NCBI RefSeq assembly: GCF_019668485.1
Contig: NZ_AP024619.1
Span: forward strand, 2,263,757 to 2,287,756
DNA length: 24,000 bases
Source of the DNA: Gelria sp. Kuro-4
GTDB taxonomy: Bacteria; Bacillota; DTU030; DUMP01
Reading direction: 5' to 3'
Under the pieces are notes generated by a model. That model was not told the DNA's origin. It saw only the letters and a list, made by a program, of their open reading frames with translations, and made no database searches. The first letter of the stretch is position 1. Each line of letters starts with the position of its first letter. The position numbers and the translations under genes are program-made. Shown here piece after piece: positions 4,749-22,633 of this stretch.

Positions 4749-6696
4749 GCCGCTTCTTCCCTCCTCCCATCAACTGCCCGGCCACCGCCGCCAGGCAGCC
4801 CAGGACCCCGCCCAGCGCCAGGCCCAGCAGCGCCCGGGCCAGCGAGATAAGGAACGGGGTGTGCAGGTGAACGAAGGTATTAAGGAGCGAGGCAGGACCC
4901 ACTGCCGCCAGCGTCACCAGGTAGGGCCGCCACCAGCGCCCGCCTCCCCACCCGGCTGCCGCCAGGAAGAGGGCCGGGTGGCCCACGAGAAACTCCTTGG
5001 TGCGCGGCCGCACCAAAAGTGTGCTCTCAAGAAAACTGCGGGCTTTGAGCTCCCAGGCCGGGATGGGGATCACCGATACGTTGCCGCTGCGGTTAAATAG
5101 TACCCAGACAACCAGCGCCAAGCCAGCCAGGGCGAAGAGTTCCGCCGGGGCAAAGAACGGCCGCCGCCACCAGCCGGCCCGCATAAGGTCCGCGCGGCGC
5201 GCCCAGAGGAACACCGCTGCCAGGGTAAGGGCGTACGCCAGTTTAATCCCGGCGAAGGCATCCAGCTTCAGCAGAAAGCGCGTATCGCCCAGGAGGGCCT
5301 GGATGACGAGCGCCCCTGCGAGCGCCGGCCCCCCGGCCAGCACCAGCGCCGTAAGGCCGGCCGCCAGCGGGCGGCGTGCCCGCAGCTCTTCCGCCTCGGC
5401 CAGTCCCCAGACCACCCCTAGGGCCGGGGCCGCCCCGGCCACCCCCAGGGCCGCCGCCTTGCGCAGCAGCGTCAGATCCGCGGCAGGGAGCACCAGCGGA
5501 AAAATGAGGAGCAGGGTAACCGCCAGGATGACCGCTGTACGCTGTTTCCGGACATCCCAGGCCGCTGCGCTCACGGCCAGGCCCGCCAGTGCCGAAAAGA
5601 GCAGGGCCAGGAGGTGCCGGTCCACTTCATAGGGGCGAAACGGCTGGGGCGCGCCCAGCTGAAAACCCGCCGCCTGTACCGCCGCCACCGCGCGCGCCAG
5701 GTGTCCCAGGTTGCTGTCCGCCAGGGCCGCGTCGGCACCGCGGGTCGTCCAGGCGTGCGCCTTGGCCGGGGACGGCACCGGGTGCCAGAGGAGGTGCGGA
5801 ATCACCAGGCGCACATTGCGATCCCGCACGGCCAGGAGGTACTCCTGGTAAACCGTGTGGACCGGCCGCTCATAGACGCGCACCGCGCGGTAGCCCCCGG
5901 CAGCCGCCACCGCCTCTGCCCCGGGCGGCAGGTTGAACTCCGGCACCCCTTGGACAATGCCCTGGGCCCCCAGCCCCTCGCCGACGTATGTCCTGAGCGG
6001 CGCCGGCACCGGTCCGGGCAGCACCAGGTGCGCCCCAAACTCCTCCAGGGCCGCGATGTCCAGGGCGAATTCCGCCCGCGTTTTCGCCCCGTCCAGCCAG
6101 GCGGGGACCGGCTCGAAGCCCAAGCGTCGCACCGCAGCGACCTGGCGCGGGTCGACGCCCAGGCCCACGTGCTCCAGATCGGCCCAGCGCGCCGCCACCC
6201 CCAGCACATAGGTATTATCCCCGGCCCAGGTGTGCAACTTGCCCGGGTAGCGCAGTCTGAGGCGCTCCTCAAGCCGGGCGAACAGGCCTGCATCGTCCAG
6301 CACCAGGTACGTGTCCGCCCCGCGGAAGGCGGGGCCGGCCAGAACCGCCCGCACCGTCGGGTCGGCCGGCGCAAGCAGCCGCCCCGCCCGTGCCAGCTCC
6401 CAGCCGCTGAACGCCTGCAGCCGGCCCGTCTGGGCGAGCCGGCCCAGGGTGTCTTCGCGCAGCACAGCATAGCCTGCCCCTTCCTGGTGGAGGGCACTGG
6501 CCAGTTCCGACGCCGGCAGGCGCGCCGCCTGCGCCACTCCCTGAACCTCGTTCCAGTCGAGCGCCACCCCTACACGGTCACTGGCCTTGACGGCCACGGC
6601 ATTGCGGCCCACGATAAAAGCTGCCGCTAAGACGAGAGGAACCAAGAAAACCAGAGCCGCCCGCCTGCAACCGCGCCGCCTGCCCCGCTCGCTCAA
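4741..6696 (-). CDS. Large polytopic membrane protein, DUF5693-like (a csaB-associated family)
   Basis: 651 aa: N-terminal TM anchor, a ~330-aa soluble domain, then many hydrophobic helices. TTG start 6696 with GGAGGAGG 8 nt upstream and a TTGA overlap with the upstream stop. The DUF5693 assignment is from memory of family architecture and csaB adjacency and was not searched. Confidence 0.7.
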   Translation of the reverse strand: MSERGRRRGCRRAALVFLVPLVLAAAFIVGRNAVAVKASDRVGVALDWNEVQGVAQAARLPASELASALHQEGAGYAVLREDTLGRLAQTGRLQAFSGWELARAGRLLAPADPTVRAVLAGPAFRGADTYLVLDDAGLFARLEERLRLRYPGKLHTWAGDNTYVLGVAARWADLEHVGLGVDPRQVAAVRRLGFEPVPAWLDGAKTRAEFALDIAALEEFGAHLVLPGPVPAPLRTYVGEGLGAQGIVQGVPEFNLPPGAEAVAAAGGYRAVRVYERPVHTVYQEYLLAVRDRNVRLVIPHLLWHPVPSPAKAHAWTTRGADAALADSNLGHLARAVAAVQAAGFQLGAPQPFRPYEVDRHLLALLFSALAGLAVSAAAWDVRKQRTAVILAVTLLLIFPLVLPAADLTLLRKAAALGVAGAAPALGVVWGLAEAEELRARRPLAAGLTALVLAGGPALAGALVIQALLGDTRFLLKLDAFAGIKLAYALTLAAVFLWARRADLMRAGWWRRPFFAPAELFALAGLALVVWVLFNRSGNVSVIPIPAWELKARSFLESTLLVRPRTKEFLVGHPALFLAAAGWGGGRWWRPYLVTLAAVGPASLLNTFVHLHTPFLISLARALLGLALGGVLGCLAAVAGQLMGGGKKRHA

Positions 6697-7790
6697 GCCC
6701 TGCCCCTCCTCCGCTTCGCCAAGAGCTCCTCGTAAATCGCCGCCGTTTCCCTGGCCATGGCCGCCCGGGAAAAGCGGCTCCAGGCCAGCTGCTGCCCGGC
6801 GCGCCCCAGCTGGGCCGCGCGCTTGCGATCGCGCAGCAGCCGCTCCACGGCCGCCGCCACCTGCTCCGGCTCACCGGGCGGCACTAAAAGCCCCGTCACC
6901 TCCGGCTCCACCACCTCGGTGATGCCACCCACCGCCGTCGCCACCACGGGCTTGGCAGCCGCCATGGCTTCCAGGAGCACCAGCCCCAGGCCCTCCCGGT
7001 GCGAGGTGAGCACCGCCACATCCAGCGCGGCAGTAACGGCGGCCACGTCGCGCCGGTAGCCCAGGAAGTGAAACTCACTCCCCAGCCCAAGCCGGCTCGC
7101 CAGTTCCTTGAGCTCGCCGGCGGCCGGCCCGCTCCCGGCCAGCAAAAAGGCGGCTTCCGGGCAGCGGCGCTTCACCAGCGCCGCTGCTCGGATGAAATCC
7201 TGGGGCGCCTTTTCCGGCACCAGGCGCGCCACCATCCCCACCAGCGGGCGACCGCCCACCCCCAGTTCCAGGCGCACCGCCGCTCCGCTGGCGCGGGCGA
7301 ATTCATCCACGTCGATGCCGTTGGGCACCACCTCGATCTGCCGGACATCCACCCCTTCGGCCTGCACCTGGGCGGCCACCGCCTCCGAGATCGCGATCAC
7401 CGCATCCGTTAAGGCGTGGGCGGCCAAGCGGTTAAGCCGGCGTTTCCAGGCGGGCGCCGGGCGGCCGCCACCCAACCCGTGGCGCGTCAGCACCAGCACC
7501 GGCACCCGCGCCAGGCGCGCCGCCACCCGTCCCGCCAGGCTGGCATGGGTGTGCACCACATCGTAGCGGCCGCCGGCCAGAAAACCGTACACCTCGCGCA
7601 CCGCCGCCGCGCTGAAGGACACGTCGCCCCGGCTGAGGAGGAGCGGCCGCCAGCCCTGCCGCTTAAGTTCCGCCTCCAACTCGCCGCCGCCCGGGCAGGC
7701 TACCGCCACCTCCATCCCTTCTGCCGCCAGGCCGGGCAGCAGGTTGAGGAGGTAGCGCCCCGCCCCGCCCACGTTCCGGTCACTCACCAC
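6693..7790 (-). CDS. Glycosyltransferase family 4
   Basis: GT4/GT-B features: N-terminal ...SDRNVGGAGRYLL, a C-terminal EGLGLVLLEAMA catalytic region, and GGITEVV. The real start may be CTG at 7805 (see findings). Confidence 0.88.
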   Translation of the reverse strand: MVSDRNVGGAGRYLLNLLPGLAAEGMEVAVACPGGGELEAELKRQGWRPLLLSRGDVSFSAAAVREVYGFLAGGRYDVVHTHASLAGRVAARLARVPVLVLTRHGLGGGRPAPAWKRRLNRLAAHALTDAVIAISEAVAAQVQAEGVDVRQIEVVPNGIDVDEFARASGAAVRLELGVGGRPLVGMVARLVPEKAPQDFIRAAALVKRRCPEAAFLLAGSGPAAGELKELASRLGLGSEFHFLGYRRDVAAVTAALDVAVLTSHREGLGLVLLEAMAAAKPVVATAVGGITEVVEPEVTGLLVPPGEPEQVAAAVERLLRDRKRAAQLGRAGQQLAWSRFSRAAMARETAAIYEELLAKRRRGRA

Positions 7791-11365: not shown

Positions 11366-11779
11366 TTACTCTACCGTCGCCCCGCCCCGCGCCAGGATGA
11401 CGGCCGGCGTCAGCGCCTTGAGGCCGCGCCCGTCCCCGCGCGGGATGAGGAGCAGGTGATTGACCGGCACCGCCTCGCCGGCCTGGATGTCCCGCCCGGC
11501 CGTCAGGTCGGCCAGGCCGCCCTGCGGGCTGGTCACCGCTGCAGCCCGGCCGGCCCGGAGGATAAGCTCCGTCCCGGCCGCGGCGCGCACCGTTTGCCCG
11601 CTCTCAAGCTCCAGCACCTGCAGCACCGCCAGCCTGTCCACGTAGCTTTTGGCCACCAGCGGGTCGGCATCGCTGCCCGGCTCGGGCGCCGCCGCCCCCA
11701 CCAGGTGCCCTGCGACCGTCCCCGCCCCGGCCAGGGCGGCTGCCAGGAGCAAAGCTCCCACCAGATACCAGCGTTTCAC
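11366..11779 (-). CDS. Small exported or membrane-anchored protein of unknown function
   Basis: 137 aa. The N-terminus MKRWYLVGALLLAAALAGAG is a signal/anchor-like segment. GTG start 11779 with AAGGAGG 7 nt upstream. It is the first gene of the cell-wall operon. Confidence 0.65.
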   Translation of the reverse strand: MKRWYLVGALLLAAALAGAGTVAGHLVGAAAPEPGSDADPLVAKSYVDRLAVLQVLELESGQTVRAAAGTELILRAGRAAAVTSPQGGLADLTAGRDIQAGEAVPVNHLLLIPRGDGRGLKALTPAVILARGGATVE

Positions 11780-11830
11780 CTTCCACCCTCCTTACGCCGT
11801 CGCCTGCATTCTGTGATCTCCCCACCCTCG

Positions 11831-12402
11831 GTACACCCGATCAGCGTGAGAAACGTACTTCGGGCTGCCAGGGGGACAGGTCGGGCATGGGGACGGGTTG
11901 GGCATGGGGACAGGTTGGGCCCTCATCTCAACCCTGGATTGCCAACCTGTCCCCCATTCCATCCTGGATTGCCGACCTGTCCTTCCTGCGCCGGTGATCC
12001 CAGCTTACACGGCACACCCACCTCCCGGCAGCAACGTCTCCCAGGTTGCCATGGGGACAGGTCGGGCATGGGGACAGGTTGGGCCCTCGCCTCAAACTCC
12101 GAATTGCCAACCTGTCCTTCCTGCGCCGGTGATCCCGGCCACACGGCACACCCGCCTCCCGAGACCGACGCCCCCCAAGGTTGCCATGGGGACAGGTCGG
12201 GCATGGGGACAGGTTGGGCCCTCATCTCAACTCTGGATTGCCAACCTGTCCCCCATTCCATCCTGGATTGCCAACCTGTCCTTCCTGCGCCGGTGATCCC
12301 AGCTTACACGGCACACCCACCTCCCGACAGCAACGTCTCCCAGGTTGCCATGGGGACAGGTTGGGCCCTCGCCTCAACTCCGAATTGCCAACCTGTCCCC
12401 AT
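11831..12402 (+). repeat. Repeat array A of the nested-palindrome family (8 heads, 6 tails, 3 linkers)
   Basis: Direct reading. Heads ATGGGGACAGGT(C/T)GGGC are at 11871, 11887 (degenerate), 11904, 12051, 12068, 12186, 12203 and 12350. Tails GCC(A/G)ACCTGTCC are at 11941, 11971, 12106, 12240, 12270 and 12387. Segment 12179-12402 is a near-duplicate of 11862-12117. Confidence 0.92.
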
Positions 12403-12404
12403 AC

Positions 12405-13509
12405 CTAATTAACCTGGCTTCTCAGATACGCCTTGATAAACGGGTCCAGCTCGCCGTCCATCACCGCCTGCACGTTGCCCATTTGCTCGCCGGTACGGTG
12501 GTCCTTCACCAAGGTATAGGGTTCGAAGATGTACGATCGGATCTGGCTCCCCCAGGCGATCTCCTGCTGCTCCCCGCGCAGGGCGTTGAGCTTGGCCTCT
12601 TCCTCCTTGCGCTTGAGGTCGAAGAGCCGGGCCTGCAGGATGCGCATGGCCGTGAGGCGGTTGGCGTGCTGGGAGCGCTCGTTCTGGCAGGTGACCACAA
12701 TCCCCGTGGGCAGGTGGGTGATGCGCACGGCGGAATCGGTCTTGTTCACGTGCTGGCCGCCCGCCCCGCCGGAGCGATAGGTGTCGATCTTCAGGTCCTC
12801 CGGCCGGATCTCCACCGCCATGTCCTGGTTTACTTCTGGGATCACGTCCAGGGAGGCAAAGGAGGTGTGGCGCCGGCCGGCCGCGTCGAAAGGCGAGTGG
12901 CGCACCAGCCGGTGCACCCCGCGCTCGCCCTTGAGGTACCCGTAGGCGTTGGGCCCGCTCACCAGGAAGGTGGCGCTCTTGATACCGGCCTCTTCGCCCG
13001 GGAGCACATCCCAGAGCTCCACCTTAAAGCCGCTCTTTTCCGCCCAGCGCGTGTACATCCTGAGCAGCATCTCCGCCCAGTCCTGGGCCTCGGTACCGCC
13101 GGCGCCGGCGTGGAGGGAGAGGATGGCGTTCAGGCGGTCGTAGGGGCCGGCCAGCAGCGCCTCCAGGTGCAAATCCTCGTAGTTCCGCTTGAGCTCGGCC
13201 AGCCCCGCCGCCACCTCGTGCGCCGTCTCGGCATCCTCCGCCTCCGCGCCCAGCTCGCAGAGGACGGCAAGGTCCTCTGCCTCTTTGGCCAGCGCCCGGT
13301 AGCGCTCCACCCTTTCCTTGAGGGCGGAAAGCTCCGGCATCACCTTCTCCGCCCGCGCCGGGTCGTCCCAGAAGCCAGGCTTGGCTATTTCCGCTTCCAG
13401 TTCGCGGATGCGGGCCTCTTTGCCTGCGATGTCAAAGAGAGACCCCCATTTCGCGGATGCTGTCCTCCAGCACGTTCAGCTCGCGCTTCAGGTCTTCATA
13501 AAGCAGCAT
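12405..13509 (-). CDS. prfB: Peptide chain release factor 2, two frames joined by a programmed +1 frameshift
   Basis: Frame 0 is ATG 13509 ... GTC TCT CTT TGA (MLLYEDLKRELNVLEDSIREMGVSL*). The +1 frame continues DIAGKEARIRELE... into the 312-aa ORF carrying SPF and GGQHVNKTDSAVRITH (GGQ) motifs. Total ~367 aa. Confidence 0.95.
13431..13447 (-). promoter_or_regulatory. prfB autoregulatory +1 frameshift site (GGGGG-N6-CTT TGA C)
   Basis: The minus strand reads ATGGGGGTCTCTCTTTGAC. The slippery CTT codon, an in-frame TGA followed by C, and an internal SD-like GGGGG upstream match the canonical RF2 frameshift cassette. Confidence 0.9.
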
Positions 13510-13564
13510 TACCATCACTCCCACTCGATCCTTCTTCGCAGGTTTGAGAAAAACAGTGAAAAGT

Positions 13565-16213
<2,649 letters not shown>

Positions 16214-16291
16214 CAAAACACCCTCTTTATGGGTCTCTCAGCGGCAGCAATGAAACCAGGGCGCCCCTTCCTCCGTAAGCGCCGTCTCTTT

Positions 16292-16320
16292 ATTTTAGCA
16301 TTTCGCCCGCGTCAAGACAA
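16292..16320 (-). promoter_or_regulatory. Putative sigma-A promoter of secA-prfB
   Basis: The minus strand reads TTGTCT-17 nt-TAAAAT with a TGC extended -10 (TGCTAAAAT), ~75 nt upstream of the secA start. Confidence 0.5.
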
Positions 16321-16328
16321 TAGAAAAG

Positions 16329-16345
16329 GCGCCCGCGCGGGGCGC
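16329..16345 (-). terminator. Putative intrinsic terminator of the 16414-17094 gene
   Basis: The minus strand reads GCGCCC-CGCGC-GGGCGC followed by CTTTTCTATT. Confidence 0.5.
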
Positions 16346-16391
16346 AGCTCCCAGGCACGCTCAATCACCGCCGCAAGCGGAGAGTGCGATC

Positions 16392-16448
16392 GCCATGGGG
16401 ACAGGTCGGGCCCTTATCTCAACTCCGGATTGCCGACCTGTCCCCCAC
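16392..16448 (+). repeat. Solo hairpin unit of the nested-palindrome family
   Basis: gccATGGGGACAGGTCGGGC-ccttatctcaactccggatt-GCCGACCTGTCCCCCac: one head, one loop and one tail. It overlaps the last ~12 codons and the stop of the minus-strand CDS. Confidence 0.88.
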
Positions 16449-17094
16449 TCCTATTAGCCCCAGGCAGGCATTTCTCCACCGCCTTGAGCGTGGCCTGCGC
16501 CACACCCATGGCCATGTCCCCCGGGATAAAGCTGGCCCCGGCCAGGCTCTCCTCGCGCGCCGGCGTCACCGCCGCCACGGTCACCACCGCCACCGGGCGC
16601 TCGCCCACGTCGAGGAGCCGCAGCCCCTCCAGCGCCAGCGCCACCTCGCCCTTCAGGTACTGCTCCACGGCGCTCAACGTCGCTACGGCCACCAGGCGCA
16701 GGCGGTTGTGCGTGGCCGCCGCCCCCTGCGCCTCGCCGGTAAAGAGCTCTCCCTCTATCTCCAGGCCCACGCTGCAGCTGGCGCGGGCCCCGCTCACCTT
16801 CACATTGACATCCACCACGCGCACCCAGGCGGCCGCCCCCGGCAGCCCCGCCTCCCAATCCAGCTGCGCGACACTCACCTTTTTGTGATCGATGGGAAGG
16901 TTAAAGTGCGCCATGAACGCGGATTCGATGTCCCGGACGATCTGCTTGGGGCTGCGCCCTGCCCCGGCCAGCACGTGGATCTCCTGAATGGCGCTTGTCT
17001 CGTCGAGAACCACACGGGCCGAGATTACGTCCCGTATCTGGCGCAGGATGCCCTCCAGCTCTGCTGCCGAAACCCCTTTTTTGATGTCGGGCAA
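16414..17094 (-). CDS. Uncharacterised protein (226 aa) in the hpf-secA interval
   Basis: High GC3. Start set at TTG 17094 (GGAGGA 6 nt upstream) rather than the track start at 17193. No family recognised. The C-terminal residues ...GGQVGNPELR* are encoded by the repeat unit. Confidence 0.62.
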   Translation of the reverse strand: MPDIKKGVSAAELEGILRQIRDVISARVVLDETSAIQEIHVLAGAGRSPKQIVRDIESAFMAHFNLPIDHKKVSVAQLDWEAGLPGAAAWVRVVDVNVKVSGARASCSVGLEIEGELFTGEAQGAAATHNRLRLVAVATLSAVEQYLKGEVALALEGLRLLDVGERPVAVVTVAAVTPAREESLAGASFIPGDMAMGVAQATLKAVEKCLPGANRSGGQVGNPELR

Positions 17095-17326
17095 AGTTCT
17101 TCCTCCATTCTCTTCTAAGTTGCAGGCATCATCCCCGGGCCGCGCACAAGAAAATGGTGGCATACAAACGGCTCTGGCATTGCTGTCGGACAAGGAGGGA
17201 GAAGCAAGAAAAAGGCCGAAGGAAACCCACGTACAGAATAATCCATGTAATTTACCTACCTGCTATTATTTTCGACCTCAGAGAGATTTTTCCTGCTATG
17301 CCTGTAACCCGGGACAGGCACGGGCC

Positions 17327-17355
17327 AATATATTTGTAGTGTTGTATAGTGTCAG
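17327..17355 (-). promoter_or_regulatory. Putative sigma-A promoter in the AT-rich island downstream of hpf
   Basis: The minus strand reads CTGACA-17 nt-TATATT. It lies immediately after the hpf terminator hairpin and ~230 nt upstream of the TTG start at 17094. Confidence 0.5.
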
Positions 17356-17363
17356 AAAGCAAG

Positions 17364-17399
17364 GCCGGCCCCGCGCCCCCGGGCGGCGCGGCGGCCGGC
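17364..17399 (-). terminator. Putative hpf terminator (GC-rich hairpin)
   Basis: GCCGGCCGCCGCGCC / GGCGCGGGGCCGGC arms (~14 bp with one bulge), followed on the minus strand by CTTGCTTTCTG. Confidence 0.55.
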
Positions 17400-17500
17400 T
17401 CGCCTACGTTCTTATCAAGTTAGGCCGGTCGTCACCGCCGTGCGGGAAACAGGCCGGCGGGTCGGCCTCGGCGGCCGTGCCGGGTGCCCGCACGAGCTTC

Positions 17501-18031
17501 TTAACGCAGCGGCTCGATGAGCCCGTAGTTCCCATCGCGCCGGCGGTAGACCACGTTCACCTCTTCCGTTTCGGCGTTGCGGAACACGAAGAAATCGTGA
17601 CCCAAAAGGTTCATCTGGAGGAGGGCCTCGTCCACCGGCATAGGCTTTACGGCGAAGCGCTTGGTGCGCACCAGGTGCGGCTCTTCTTCATCGGCCGGGC
17701 GCCCGCCGACTCCGGCGGCCAGGTCCAGGACGCTGCCGTTTTTCACTTTACGGGCGAGGCGGGTTTTATACTTTTCAATCTGCTTCTCCAGCTTTTCAAT
17801 CACCATGTCGATGGAGGCGTACATGTCGCCGCTGGCCACTTCGCCCCGGAGCAACCGGCCGCCCACCGGCACCGTCACCTCCACCATGTGCCGGTCCCGT
17901 TCCACCCCGAGCGTTACCGTGGCTTCTGTAATGTCGTCCAGGAGTTTCGGGAGCTTGCCCATTTTCTTTTCGACATAGTCGCGCAAGGCAGGCGTGATTT
18001 CGATGTTTTTCCCGCGGACAGTGATCCGCAT
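17501..18031 (-). CDS. hpf: Ribosome hibernation-promoting factor (long HPF, YvyD/RaiA family)
   Basis: MRITVRGKNIEITPALRDYVEKKMGKL..., plus the C-terminal dimerisation domain KRFAVKPMPVDEALLQMNLLGHDFFVFRNAETEEVNVVYRRRDGNYGLIEP. Start ATG 18031 with AAAGGAG 8 nt upstream. Confidence 0.93.
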   Translation of the reverse strand: MRITVRGKNIEITPALRDYVEKKMGKLPKLLDDITEATVTLGVERDRHMVEVTVPVGGRLLRGEVASGDMYASIDMVIEKLEKQIEKYKTRLARKVKNGSVLDLAAGVGGRPADEEEPHLVRTKRFAVKPMPVDEALLQMNLLGHDFFVFRNAETEEVNVVYRRRDGNYGLIEPLR

Positions 18032-18075
18032 CCTGACCACTCCTTTCTACGCGAAAGCCTGCGTGCGTGGGGCCG

Positions 18076-18616
18076 CACGGCAACCCGATTCCCGTAGGAA
18101 ACGTCTCCCGGGTTGCCATGGGGACAGGTCAGTCCTCACGGCAAACTCACCTGCCGGAAGAAACGTACCCTGGGTTGCCAGGGGGGACAGGTCGGGCCCT
18201 CGTCTCTACCCCGAATTGCCGACCTGTCCTGCTTGCGCCGGTCATCCCGGCTACACGGCACACCCACCTCCCGACAGAAACGTCTCCCGGGTTGCCATGG
18301 GGACAGGTCAGTCCTCACGGCAAACTCACCTGCCGGAAGAAACGTACCCTGGGTTGCCATGGGGACAGGTCGGGCCCTCGTCTCTACCCCGAATTGCCGA
18401 CCTGTCCTGCTTGCGCCGGTCATCCCGGCTACACGGCACACCCACCTCCCGACAGAAACGTCTCCCAGGGTTGCCATGGGGACAGGTCGGGCCTCACGGC
18501 AAACTCACCTGCCGGAAGAAACGTACCCTGGGTTGCCATGGGGACAGGTCGGGCCCTCGTCTCAACCCTGAATTGCCGACCTGTCCCCATACCGCTAAAC
18601 AGACCTGTCCCCATAC
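18076..18616 (+). repeat. Repeat array C: 179-bp higher-order tandem repeat (~2.8 units) of the nested-palindrome family
   Basis: GGTTGCCATG recurs at 18111, 18290 and 18469 (period 179). Units 1 and 2 differ at only a few positions. Each unit is a 62-bp head-only subunit plus a 117-bp head-loop-tail-linker subunit. An extra partial tail sits at 18601-18614. Confidence 0.93.
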
Positions 18617-18617
18617 A

Positions 18618-18646
18618 TTATTCCCCGCGCCCGAGGAAAATCCTTC
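18618..18646 (-). promoter_or_regulatory. Sigma-H-like promoter candidate upstream of array C and hpf
   Basis: The minus strand reads GAAGGATTT-11 nt-GGGGAATAA. This fits the Bacillus sigma-H consensus as I recall it (RNAGGAWWW-N11-12-RNNGAATWW) at every specified position. Confidence 0.4.
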
Positions 18647-18667
18647 CCGCCCCGCGCAAACCAAAAG

Positions 18668-18692
18668 GGCCTTCGGTGAGCTTCCGAAGGTC
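18668..18692 (-). terminator. Intrinsic terminator of the ABC transporter operon
   Basis: The minus strand reads CCTTCGG-AAGCTCA-CCGAAGG followed by CCCTTTTGGTTTG, 13 nt after the ATPase stop codon. Confidence 0.65.
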
Positions 18693-21350: not shown

Positions 21351-21368
21351 TGTGGATAATGTGGATAA
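21351..21368 (+). promoter_or_regulatory. Two abutting perfect DnaA boxes
   Basis: TGTGGATAATGTGGATAA is two head-to-tail copies of the reverse complement of TTATCCACA. Two 7/9 matches lie nearby in the same orientation (21372-21380 TGTTGAAAA, 21403-21411 TGTGGGCAA). Confidence 0.7.
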
Positions 21369-21486
21369 ACCTGTTGAAAACTTCCGCCTCAGGGGCTTGT
21401 CCTGTGGGCAAACCTGGGGAGAGCTCCGCGCACCGTGTCGAAGTCCCACGAACGGTCCCGGTCCCTGTCGCCTATTGCCGTGGGAG

Positions 21487-21967
21487 TTGCCGACCTGTCC
21501 TATCCTGCGCCGGTCCCCACTGCGCACACGCACACCCACCTGCCGAGAGCAACGGATCCTGGGTTGCCATGGGGACAGGTCGGGCCTCACGGCACACCCA
21601 CCTTCCGACAGAAACGTACCCTGGGTTGCCATGGGGACAGGTCGGGCATGGGGACAGGTCGGGCCCTCAATGGTCACCCTGGATTGCCGACCTGTCCCCC
21701 ACTCCTATCCCCGAATTGCCGACCTGTCCCACCCTGCGCCAGTTCCTACTACGCACACGGCACACCTACCCGCCGAAAGTAACGGATCCTGGGTTGCCAT
21801 GGGGACAGGTCGGGCCCTCGTCTCCTCCCCAGATTGCCGACCTGTCACCTCTCCGGAAGCCTTTGTGCAACTCCACGGCACACCCGACTTCCAAAAGAAA
21901 CGCCTCCAGGGTTGCCATGGGGACAGGTCGGGCCCTCGTCTCTACCCAGAATTGCCGACCTGTCCCC
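21487..21967 (+). repeat. Repeat array D of the nested-palindrome family (5 heads, 5 tails, mosaic order)
   Basis: Orphan tail at 21489. Heads at 21569, 21631, 21648, 21799 and 21917. Tails at 21686, 21718, 21836 (degenerate) and 21954. One nested double hairpin at 21631-21730. Confidence 0.9.
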
Positions 21968-21985
21968 TCTCCTCTAATACAAAAA

Positions 21986-22006
21986 CCCGGGCACCACCTG
22001 CCCGGG
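21986..22006 (-). terminator. Intrinsic terminator of the zinc-ribbon gene
   Basis: The minus strand reads CCCGGGCA-GGTGG-TGCCCGGG followed by TTTTTGTATT, 20 nt after the stop codon. Confidence 0.7.
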
Positions 22007-22025
22007 TAATTTGTCCTTCGTCCGG

Positions 22026-22364: not shown

Positions 22365-22633
22365 ACCATAGCTTAGCTGACCTGGTCTTTGCCCCCACAC
22401 CCGCCTGCTGGAAGTCTCGCTCCGGGCCTTCGCCCCTCACTACTCCTTCTCTCCGGGCCGCTCGGAAAGCCCTGTTCAGAACCGGCCACCCTCCGGTCCT
22501 CAGGCCCCTCCCGCGCTCCCGGGCAGGACTTACCCCTAAGCCGCCCCATGCTCAGCAGTCCTTCAACTGCCTTACGTGGATCGTTTCGCCCGCGGCTGGC
22601 ATCGATTTGCAACCACAGACCTAAGCCATTGGT
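22365..22633 (-). ncRNA. Candidate structured RNA (long 5' leader of the zinc-ribbon gene or an independent ncRNA)
   Basis: ~269 nt, GC-rich and non-coding-looking, directly downstream of a near-consensus promoter. Its first ~25 nt (22633-22609) can pair with 22392-22365 (~20 bp in three segments). It has several internal hairpins (for example AGGACCGG-AGGGUGG-CCGGUUCU). I recognise no Rfam family. Confidence 0.4.

What the first reader, a model, noticed from the sequence alone, without database searches (positions are those of the whole stretch)
11831..12402. Unassigned modular family of long, nested palindromes; array A abuts the prfB stop codon
Seen directly: the ~570 bp between the prfB stop (TAG 12405-12407) and the next gene is built almost entirely from recurring modules, all in one orientation. 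The modules are a head ATGGGGACAGGTYGGGC, a 20-21 nt loop (CCTC...G[A/G]ATT), a tail GCCRACCTGTCC(CCAT), and a ~68-nt linker (TTCCTGCGCCGGTGATCCC.GC..ACACGGCACACCCACCTCCCG.CAGCAACGTCTCCCAGGTTGCC). Head and tail are reverse complements (up to 16 bp with one bulged G), so each unit is a long hairpin. At 11871-11982 and 12186-12281 a complete hairpin sits inside the loop of another (head-head-loop-tail-spacer-tail). That layout looks like self-targeted insertion or templated expansion. The same modules recur at 16392-16448, 18076-18616 and 21487-21967. By my count there are 20 heads and 16 tails in 24 kb, always intergenic and always in the same orientation. There is compensatory variation: all four inner hairpins of array A have head GGTTGG paired with tail CCAACC, whereas elsewhere GGTCGG pairs with CCGACC. 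The caveat is that the array A units are duplicates of each other, so this may be only one or two independent events. In 12186-12281 the outer pair is C opposite A on the + strand, which is a G-U wobble in the gene-sense (minus) transcript. No U-tract terminator follows prfB; the tail ends 2 nt from its stop. I do not recognise this as REP/BIME, BOX, RUP, ERIC, Correia, CRISPR or an attC array. Candidate roles, all inferred: a REP/BIME-like 3'-end stabiliser or transcription barrier; a hairpin MITE mobilised by an IS200/IS605- or RAYT-type enzyme encoded elsewhere; or a protein-binding array.
Basis: partly seen in the sequence, partly recalled or inferred. Interest (0 to 1): 0.85.

Follow-up and report, generated by a model that had tools for sequence, protein, structure and literature searches.

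The report
Lineage-specific palindromic intergenic repeat arrays
The stretch after prfB is a real, previously undescribed family of small hairpin-forming repeats that invaded gene-end positions in one thermophilic Clostridia lineage (Gelria sp. Kuro-4 and close kin) and then multiplied locally; it resembles the REP/BIME-type "junk-or-regulator" repeats long known from other bacteria and is not a new kind of system.

Summary
The window (Gelria sp. Kuro-4) has 20 heads and 16 tails of an 11-15-nt arm. They form 13-17-bp GC-rich hairpins with conserved loops and linkers at five sites, all in the sense orientation of the flanking genes.

I found two more sites in the glycine-reductase operon of the same lineage. 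Close relatives carry arrays at the same sites with different unit numbers. A sister lineage (SecA 90% identical) and two outgroups have empty sites; prfB is followed by the next gene after only 17-20 nt.

So this is a recent, lineage-restricted insertion that was then amplified locally in tandem. Arrays start next to TAA/TAG-type sequence, usually no more than 8 nt after a stop codon. One copy supplies the stop codon of a gene. Another sits between a conserved sigH-like promoter and hpf.

Unequal head and tail counts argue for slippage of arm modules and against hairpin-into-hairpin insertion. I found no Rfam, phage, plasmid or other-genome match, no covariation beyond one column pair, and no coding signal.

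Best reading: a new REP/BIME/REPIN-like (possibly IS200/IS605-type) non-autonomous element that is co-transcribed with host operons. The mobilising enzyme and any RNA role remain untested. Interest is moderate.

The parts
11800..12404 (-). Array A. Four units lie between the prfB stop codon and the ribosome-binding site of the next gene (RBS/GTG at 11777-11793). In gene sense the order is FR (12350-12402), FFRR (12186-12284), FRR (about 12050-12120) and FFRRR (about 11872-11985). A degenerate terminal L1/L2 follows (L1-like 11827-11869).
   Evidence: The orthologous gap is 17-20 nt in the sister lineage and outgroups.
12405..13343 (-). prfB (RF2, PCRF + RF-1 domains), main reading frame. Its TAG stop at 12405-12407 is 2 nt from the first hairpin.
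16354..16450 (-). A single unit: hairpin at 16397-16446 plus a diverged L1-like stretch at 16354-16396. The hairpin encodes the C-terminal ~9 residues and the TAA stop of the 226-aa hypothetical gene (16414-17094). A canonical terminator follows at 16319-16345.
18076..18616 (-). Array C. It has three hairpin units plus extra 62-nt R+L1 modules. It is inserted directly after the -10 element of the conserved sigH-like hpf promoter (18618-18646) and ends about 30 nt before the hpf RBS (18029-18047). It is therefore predicted to be the hpf 5' leader.
21460..21975 (-). Array D (FR, variant FR, FFRR, lone R+L1, terminal lone F). It starts 8 nt after the intrinsic terminator of the zf_Tbcl gene (21976-22007).
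18618..18646 (-). Conserved sigH-type promoter-like motif GAAGGATTT-N11-GGGGAATAA upstream of hpf. It is present and close to hpf in the outgroups.
   Evidence: sequence comparison. The consensus is recalled from B. subtilis literature.

Best explanation
This is a lineage-specific, non-autonomous palindromic mosaic element. Functionally it belongs to the same class as REP/BIME/REPIN elements and the hairpin-ended derivatives of IS200/IS605.

Unit structure. In gene sense (the window's minus strand) the basic unit is about 120-135 nt: TA(A/G) | GGTRTGG-[5' arm GGACAGGTYGG]-23-nt loop CAATYC..GAGGGC-[3' arm CCRACCTGTCCCCATGG]-L1 (CAACC..CGTTTCT..GGGTGTGCCGTG)-L2 (about 25 nt, with a few variants shared between loci).

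Shown:
- The unit was inserted after the split from a sister lineage, at AT-rich TAA/TAG-type positions. In a 62-66% GC genome these positions are mostly stop codons.
- Insertion is always in one polarity relative to the flanking genes.
- Each insertion then expanded or contracted in place by tandem duplication of whole units and of arm modules (17-nt and 30-33-nt). This produces the 'nested' look.

Inferred:
- Dispersal used a strand-specific single-stranded-DNA mechanism (a Y1/HUH transposase encoded elsewhere).
- The arrays are passively co-transcribed as 3'-UTR, intercistronic or 5'-leader RNA and must allow read-through.
- Their -31 to -35 kcal/mol hairpins may incidentally protect upstream mRNA from 3' exonucleases, as REPs do.
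For: - Real repeats far above chance.
- Source identified as Gelria sp. Kuro-4.
- Same sites but different unit numbers in close relatives. The prfB gap is 625, 340, 309 and 474 nt. The hpf array has 1 to 4 hairpin units. The two grd-operon sites carry 1 to 3 units (G1) and 1 to 4 hairpin clusters (G2).
- Empty sites in the sister lineage (SecA 90% identical) and in outgroups (80% and 76%): the prfB-to-next-gene gap is 20, 19 and 17 nt, and a unit HMM gives no hit at E<=10.
- Two further sites in the grd operon of the same organism; its thioredoxin is identical to BCV23806. One of them is also occupied in a lineage only ~89-91% identical at the DNA level.
- All 7 sites lie between co-directional genes in sense orientation. 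Four of the 7 start no more than 8 nt after the upstream stop, and a fifth supplies the stop codon itself. All left junctions read T-W-A-R followed by GGTRTGG or a close variant.
- In L051 two complete units lie head to tail with a TAG-GGTGTGG junction, which delimits a unit of about 122 nt.
- Unbalanced arm counts support slippage.
- Canonical terminators exist next to the arrays, so the hairpins are not the terminators.
Against: - No transposase could be looked for, because the Kuro-4 genome is not in any searchable collection here. None is annotated in the roughly 100 kb of relatives' sequence inspected.
- No target-site duplication or clean empty-versus-filled junction could be defined. 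The sister lineage's prfB 3' end has itself diverged.
- No presence/absence polymorphism was seen among the closest strains, so ongoing transposition is not shown.
- Orientation bias cannot be separated from replication direction or from selection at the RNA level.
- Unit counts come partly from short-read metagenome assemblies and may be collapsed.
Confidence: 0.6

Rival explanations
1. The element is a host-selected cis-acting RNA. The hairpins would act as intercistronic or 3'-UTR stabilisers or as RNase processing sites that set the relative expression of flanking genes. Polarity and stop-codon adjacency would then be maintained by selection.
For: - All 7 sites are in sense orientation and inside transcription units.
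- The hairpins are very stable.
- The arrays are retained at every site in all close relatives.
Against: - The RNAalifold covariation term is -0.12, and only one stem column pair varies on both sides.
- Mismatches show no strand bias.
- Unit number is highly variable.
- The sites are empty in the sister lineage with 17-20 nt gene spacing, so the ancestral operons worked without the element.
- There is no Rfam family match.
Confidence: 0.2
2. The element is a DNA-level protein-binding array, for example for a nucleoid-associated protein, gyrase or IHF-like factor as at E. coli BIMEs, or for an unknown sequence-specific binder of GGACAGGTCGG. Arrays would organise local supercoiling or the chromosome.
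For: - The arms, loop ends and L1 blocks (CGTTTCT, GGGTGTGCCGTG) are strongly conserved across loci.
- Spacing is regular, at 17, 30-33 and 117-179 nt.
Against: - The high conservation is equally explained by recent origin.
- No binding protein is known, and none could be tested here.
- A purely DNA-level binding site would not require the strict polarity seen relative to genes.
Confidence: 0.1
3. No transposition occurred. One ancestral intergenic hairpin region spread to a handful of sites by ectopic recombination or gene conversion, and everything else is local tandem duplication.
For: - Only 7 sites are known.
- There is no site polymorphism among close strains.
- L2 linker variants are shared between loci, and the first prfB hairpin differs between strains as if replaced by another copy.
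Against: - Ectopic recombination needs pre-existing homology at the target, and the empty sites in outgroups show none.
- The consistent T-W-A-R / GGTRTGG left junction at all sites points to a defined insertion end.
Confidence: 0.07

Closest known systems
REP/BIME of enterobacteria and pseudomonads (RAYT-associated)
   Same: Extragenic position, arms in alternating orientation separated by two classes of conserved linker, tandem amplification with strain-to-strain copy variation, location at gene 3' ends and inside operons, and co-transcription. BIME definition taken from PMC2817692 and PMC3333891 (abstracts).
   Different: - The repeated arm (11-15 nt) is not itself a palindrome.
- There is no GTAG or CGTC tag (PMC3733652).
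- The hairpin is long (13-17 bp) with a 23-nt conserved loop.
- Polarity relative to genes is strict.
- The host is a member of the Clostridia, which the word search of that REP survey did not find mentioned.
- No RAYT has been demonstrated.
REPINs (Pseudomonas fluorescens)
   Same: Two inverted short repeats plus a spacer form one long hairpin that behaves as the mobile unit. Singlets and clusters both occur (PMC3116915, PMC3337134).
   Different: - Here an additional ~70-nt conserved non-palindromic tail (L1-L2) belongs to the unit.
- Arm modules duplicate in tandem.
- The associated transposase is unknown.
IS200/IS605 family ends and their miniature derivatives (PATEs)
   Same: Hairpin near the end, no terminal inverted repeats at the element boundaries, no detectable target duplication, insertion next to a short specific sequence, and single-strand polarity (PMC6006769 abstract).
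   Different: - The flank motif (T-W-A-R) is loose.
- The hairpin foot lies only 2-8 nt from the junction.
- No TnpA or TnpB gene has been linked to the element.
MIRU (mycobacterial interspersed repetitive units); recalled from Supply et al. 1997, not read here
   Same: Tandem 50-180-nt units in intergenic regions of operons, same orientation as the genes, and variable number between strains.
   Different: MIRUs are not long palindromes and were proposed to carry small ORFs coupled to the flanking genes. No array-spanning frame is kept here.
Correia/NEMIS elements of Neisseria (recalled)
   Same: Small, abundant, co-transcribed inverted-repeat elements that alter mRNA processing and promoters.
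   Different: Correia elements have 26-nt terminal inverted repeats and a TA duplication. That architecture is absent here.

Membership tests
REP/BIME (RAYT-associated) | The unit is a 20-40-nt imperfect palindrome. | tested here: not met
   The conserved arm GGACAGGTYGG is not self-complementary. The palindrome needs two arms plus a 23-nt loop, about 55 nt in all.
REP/BIME (RAYT-associated) | A conserved GTAG (or CGTC) tetranucleotide at one end of the stem (PMC3733652). | tested here: not met
   The arms are preceded by GTAT/GTGT only at array-proximal copies. Internal copies have AATG, AGTG, GGAA and similar.
REP/BIME (RAYT-associated) | Repeats in alternating orientation separated by conserved linkers; tandem amplification. 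| tested here: met
   F and R arms alternate, with a 23-nt loop and a 68-75-nt L1-L2 linker. Arrays hold 1-4 units and the number varies between strains.
REP/BIME (RAYT-associated) | A cognate RAYT (Y1 transposase) gene, typically flanked by REPs. | not testable with these tools
   The Kuro-4 genome (AP024619) is absent from the searchable collections. No Y1_Tnp is listed in the Pfam annotation of the relatives' loci.
REP/BIME (RAYT-associated) | High copy number (more than 100 per genome). | not testable with these tools
   Only 7 sites were seen in about 75 kb of lineage sequence, and this sample is biased towards the element.
MITE (TIR/TSD type) | Terminal inverted repeats at the element ends, flanked by a target-site duplication. 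| tested here: not met
   The inverted arms enclose the loop, not the element. No direct repeat flanks the arrays.
IS200/IS605-derived miniature element (PATE) | Subterminal hairpin, insertion 3' of a short conserved sequence, single polarity. | tested here: inconclusive
   All 7 left junctions read T-W-A-R followed by GGTRTGG or a variant, and all 7 elements have the same polarity. The motif is loose, and polarity is confounded with gene direction.
MIRU-like operon VNTR | Small ORFs in the unit, translationally coupled to the flanking genes. | tested here: not met
   Stop codons occur in all three sense frames in most arrays, and the unit periods are not multiples of 3.
CRISPR array | Identical repeats separated by unique spacers. 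| tested here: not met
   The 'spacers' (L1-L2) are themselves conserved repeats.
Intrinsic terminator | A GC-rich hairpin immediately followed by a U-tract. | tested here: not met
   No U-tract follows the large hairpins. Separate canonical terminators lie at 16319-16345, 18658-18690 and 21976-22007.
Any Rfam family | A covariance-model match at the gathering score. | tested here: not met
   Only raiA (RF03072), which lies elsewhere in the window, passes. The array region gives sub-threshold miRNA/lncRNA noise.

The most novel reading that the evidence does not exclude
The element is an active or recently active single-strand-DNA (HUH/Y1-type) mobilised hairpin element of Clostridia. It specifically targets stop-codon sequence (TAA/TAG), brings its own TAA/TAG-GG left end (so it can replace a gene's stop codon and C-terminus), and is tolerated inside essential operons. 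This would be a REPIN-like system with a new recognition hairpin and a new target rule in a phylum where such systems are essentially undescribed.
Probability: 0.25. Interest if true: 0.55.

Novelty: new member of a known kind. Interest (0 to 1): 0.38.

Why it matters
- It adds a Clostridia example to a repeat class known mainly from Proteobacteria.
- It gives a clean natural experiment: filled versus empty operon junctions within about 10-17% DNA divergence. This can be used to ask how 0.3-0.8 kb of strong hairpins inserted between prfB and its downstream gene, in the grd operon, and between a promoter and hpf affects expression.
- It explains why short-read assemblies of this lineage break at these positions.
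- The arrays are ready-made VNTR markers for strain typing in anaerobic digesters.
- It does not change any general concept.

Tried and rejected
- Rfam at gathering and permissive thresholds gave nothing for the arrays.
- A hairpin-pattern scan of one genome per species returned 18 singleton palindromes in unrelated taxa with unrelated loops. These are chance or terminator hairpins. The source genome is evidently not in that collection.
- The viral contig scan gave 0 matches. The metagenome scan returned only Kuro-4-like contigs. Phage and plasmid BLAST gave no match.
- A literature string search for the core 11-mers returned only unrelated primers and constructs. The genome announcement does not mention repeats.
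- I tried to census arrays through spurious ORFs in the protein database. Only two hits came back, both already known loci.
- L1 secondary structure: RNAalifold finds essentially nothing, and there is no covariation.
- The G-U versus C-A strand test showed no bias.
- MIRU-type coupled small ORFs were rejected, although in some G1 alleles (L037, L042) one frame happens to stay open across the array.
- Self-insertion of one hairpin into another was rejected on arm-count imbalance.
- GC skew, used to infer replication direction, is confounded by gene orientation.
It was partly circumvented through cluster look-ups. All look-ups are now spent.

Full report
**Source and layout**

Exact protein look-ups identify the window as Gelria sp. 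Kuro-4 (BCV25482-86; 2.88-Mb genome AP024619) (genome paper PMC8375477). The window is 66% GC. Essentially all of its genes are on the minus strand: transketolase halves, a cell-wall polysaccharide cluster, a 137-aa gene, prfB, secA, a 226-aa hypothetical gene, hpf, an amino-acid ABC transporter, a zf_Tbcl gene behind a raiA RNA, and fliS.

- There are 20 heads and 16 tails on the + strand, at 11831-12402, 16392-16448, 18076-18616 and 21464-21967.
- The hairpin pattern occurs 17 times in the window and 0 times in shuffles.
- Single hairpins fold at -31 to -35 kcal/mol as RNA (z about -4 to -6) and about -18 kcal/mol as DNA.

**Anatomy, read in gene sense (minus strand)**

A unit has the following parts, in order:
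- TA(A/G), followed by GGTRTGG or a variant.
- The 5' arm F (GGACAGGTYGG).
- A 23-nt loop (CAATYC...GAGGGC).
- The 3' arm R (CCRACCTGTCCCCATGG).
- L1, about 42 nt (CAACC...CGTTTCT...GGGTGTGCCGTG).
- L2, about 25 nt. Two or three L2 variants are shared between loci.

Three smaller modules repeat in tandem:
- R alone, with a 17-nt period.
- F plus half a loop, with a 30-33-nt period.
- R plus L1, with a 62-nt period.

The start of L1 is itself a degenerate R.

The 'nested palindromes' are runs of F followed by runs of R. Among distinct clusters I count FR 17, FFRR 8, FFR 5, FRR 4, FFFRR 2 and FFRRR 1. Arms therefore duplicate independently. The outer loop is not reconstituted around an inner hairpin. 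Slippage fits the data and hairpin-into-hairpin insertion does not.

**Comparative evidence**

Syntenic contigs from close relatives carry arrays at the same sites but with different unit numbers. These relatives come from JGI, ENA, NCBI MAGs and Logan assemblies, with ~95-99% DNA identity outside the arrays.
- The prfB-to-next-gene gap is 625, 340, 309 and 474 nt.
- The hpf array has 1 to 4 hairpin units.

A caveat applies: short-read assemblies can collapse such arrays. The strain's own Logan contig ends inside arrays on both sides.

A metagenome scan plus a thioredoxin identical to Kuro-4 BCV23806 revealed two further sites in the glycine-reductase operon. G1 lies between the grdE-like gene and grdA. 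G2 lies after the plsX-like gene. Both are sense-oriented, both start 7 nt after the stop codon in the contigs read, and both vary in unit number. A lineage only ~89-91% identical at the DNA level in this region also has the element at G1. There, two complete units of about 122 nt are joined head to tail through ...TTTTCG-TAG-GGTGTGG....

The sister lineage (SecA 90% identical; ~83% DNA identity) and two outgroups (80% and 76%) show the opposite. They have no copy in 13-22 kb of the same synteny. A unit HMM gives no hit at E<=10. The prfB-to-next-gene spacers are only 20, 19 and 17 nt.

The arrays are therefore recent insertions into previously tight junctions.

**Insertion contexts**

- All seven sites lie between co-directional genes, with the element in sense orientation.
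- Four arrays begin no more than 8 nt after the upstream stop codon, and a fifth overlaps it.
- At the 226-aa gene the element supplies the last codons and the stop. As a result the protein is 224, 226 or 236 aa in different strains.
- Array D begins 8 nt after a canonical terminator.
- Array C begins immediately after the -10 element of a promoter-like motif, GAAGGATTT-N11-GGGGAATAA. This motif is conserved in the outgroups, where it lies just upstream of hpf with only a short leader. It matches the B. subtilis sigH consensus as I recall it. hpf must therefore be transcribed through about 540 nt of array.
- grdA and the gene after prfB likewise depend on read-through.
- Canonical terminators sit beside the arrays. 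The hairpins are not the terminators and cannot be strong barriers.

**What it is not**

- It matches no Rfam family.
- It matches no phage, plasmid or viral sequence.
- It has no other-species match beyond chance palindromes.
- It is not a CRISPR array, because the linkers are conserved.
- It is not MIRU-type coupled coding, because all frames carry stops.
- There is no supported RNA structure beyond the main stem. The covariation term is -0.12 and only the Y/R column pair changes on both sides.
- Wobble mismatches show no strand bias.

**Mechanism**

Shown: recent lineage-restricted insertion, a defined left junction next to T-W-A-R, uniform polarity, and local tandem expansion and contraction.

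Inferred: mobilisation by a strand-specific single-strand-DNA enzyme (Y1/HUH, as for REPs/REPINs and IS200/IS605; abstracts), passive co-transcription, and possible REP-like protection of upstream mRNA.

The enzyme could not be sought, because the genome is not searchable here. Replication-versus-transcription polarity could not be separated.

**Verdict**

This is a genuine, previously undescribed, lineage-specific family of REP/BIME/REPIN-like mosaic palindromic repeats. It fails the strict REP criteria (no GTAG tag; the arm is not a palindrome), so I do not file it as a REP. Its kind is nonetheless well known. Interest is moderate.

Noticed in passing
window 21351-21368 (minus strand): Two perfect, adjacent DnaA-box nonamers (TTATCCACATTATCCACA) lie in the long intergenic region upstream of the amino-acid ABC binding-protein gene. 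The same pair is conserved in all relatives, including the 76-80% outgroups; L036 has a third box.
   Followed up: partly
window 22368-22629 (minus strand): A raiA RNA motif (RF03072, 166 bits) lies directly upstream of a 102-aa zf_Tbcl gene. The arrangement appears to be kept in outgroup L036, judged only by inspecting its sequence.
   Followed up: no
window 18618-18646 (minus strand): A sigH-type promoter-like motif (GAAGGATTT-N11-GGGGAATAA) lies upstream of hpf and is conserved in the outgroups. In this lineage it is separated from hpf by the roughly 540-nt repeat array.
   Followed up: partly
window 16414-17094 (minus strand): The 226-aa hypothetical protein has no Pfam domain. Its C-terminus and stop codon are encoded by the repeat hairpin, and the ends differ between strains (224, 226 or 236 aa).
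   Followed up: yes
window ~13343-13440 (minus strand): The prfB ORF layout is a short upstream ORF ending ...GVSL* followed by the main frame. This looks like the usual programmed +1 frameshift. Some gene callers fuse the two into 363-367 aa.
   Followed up: no
L020 (Logan DRR264974 contig, equivalent to window 12349-18127): The short-read assembly of the strain's own reads breaks inside the arrays at both ends. These repeats fragment assemblies of this lineage.
   Followed up: partly
L005 6783-6835, L018 1759-1812 (one Actinomycetes MAG) and L027 1370-1423: Unrelated genomes carry intergenic hairpins with the same 13-15-nt stem (CCGGGGACAGGTCGG...CCGACCTGTCCCCGG) but different loops, located at or near gene ends. 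No transposase lies nearby. This is probably chance or convergence.
   Followed up: partly
L035 ~5610-5650 and L036 ~6715-6750: In the outgroups the terminator hairpins of the zf_Tbcl gene contain GGGGACAG...CTG(C/T)CCC-like stems, which faintly resemble the element's arm. This is possibly a coincidence.
   Followed up: no
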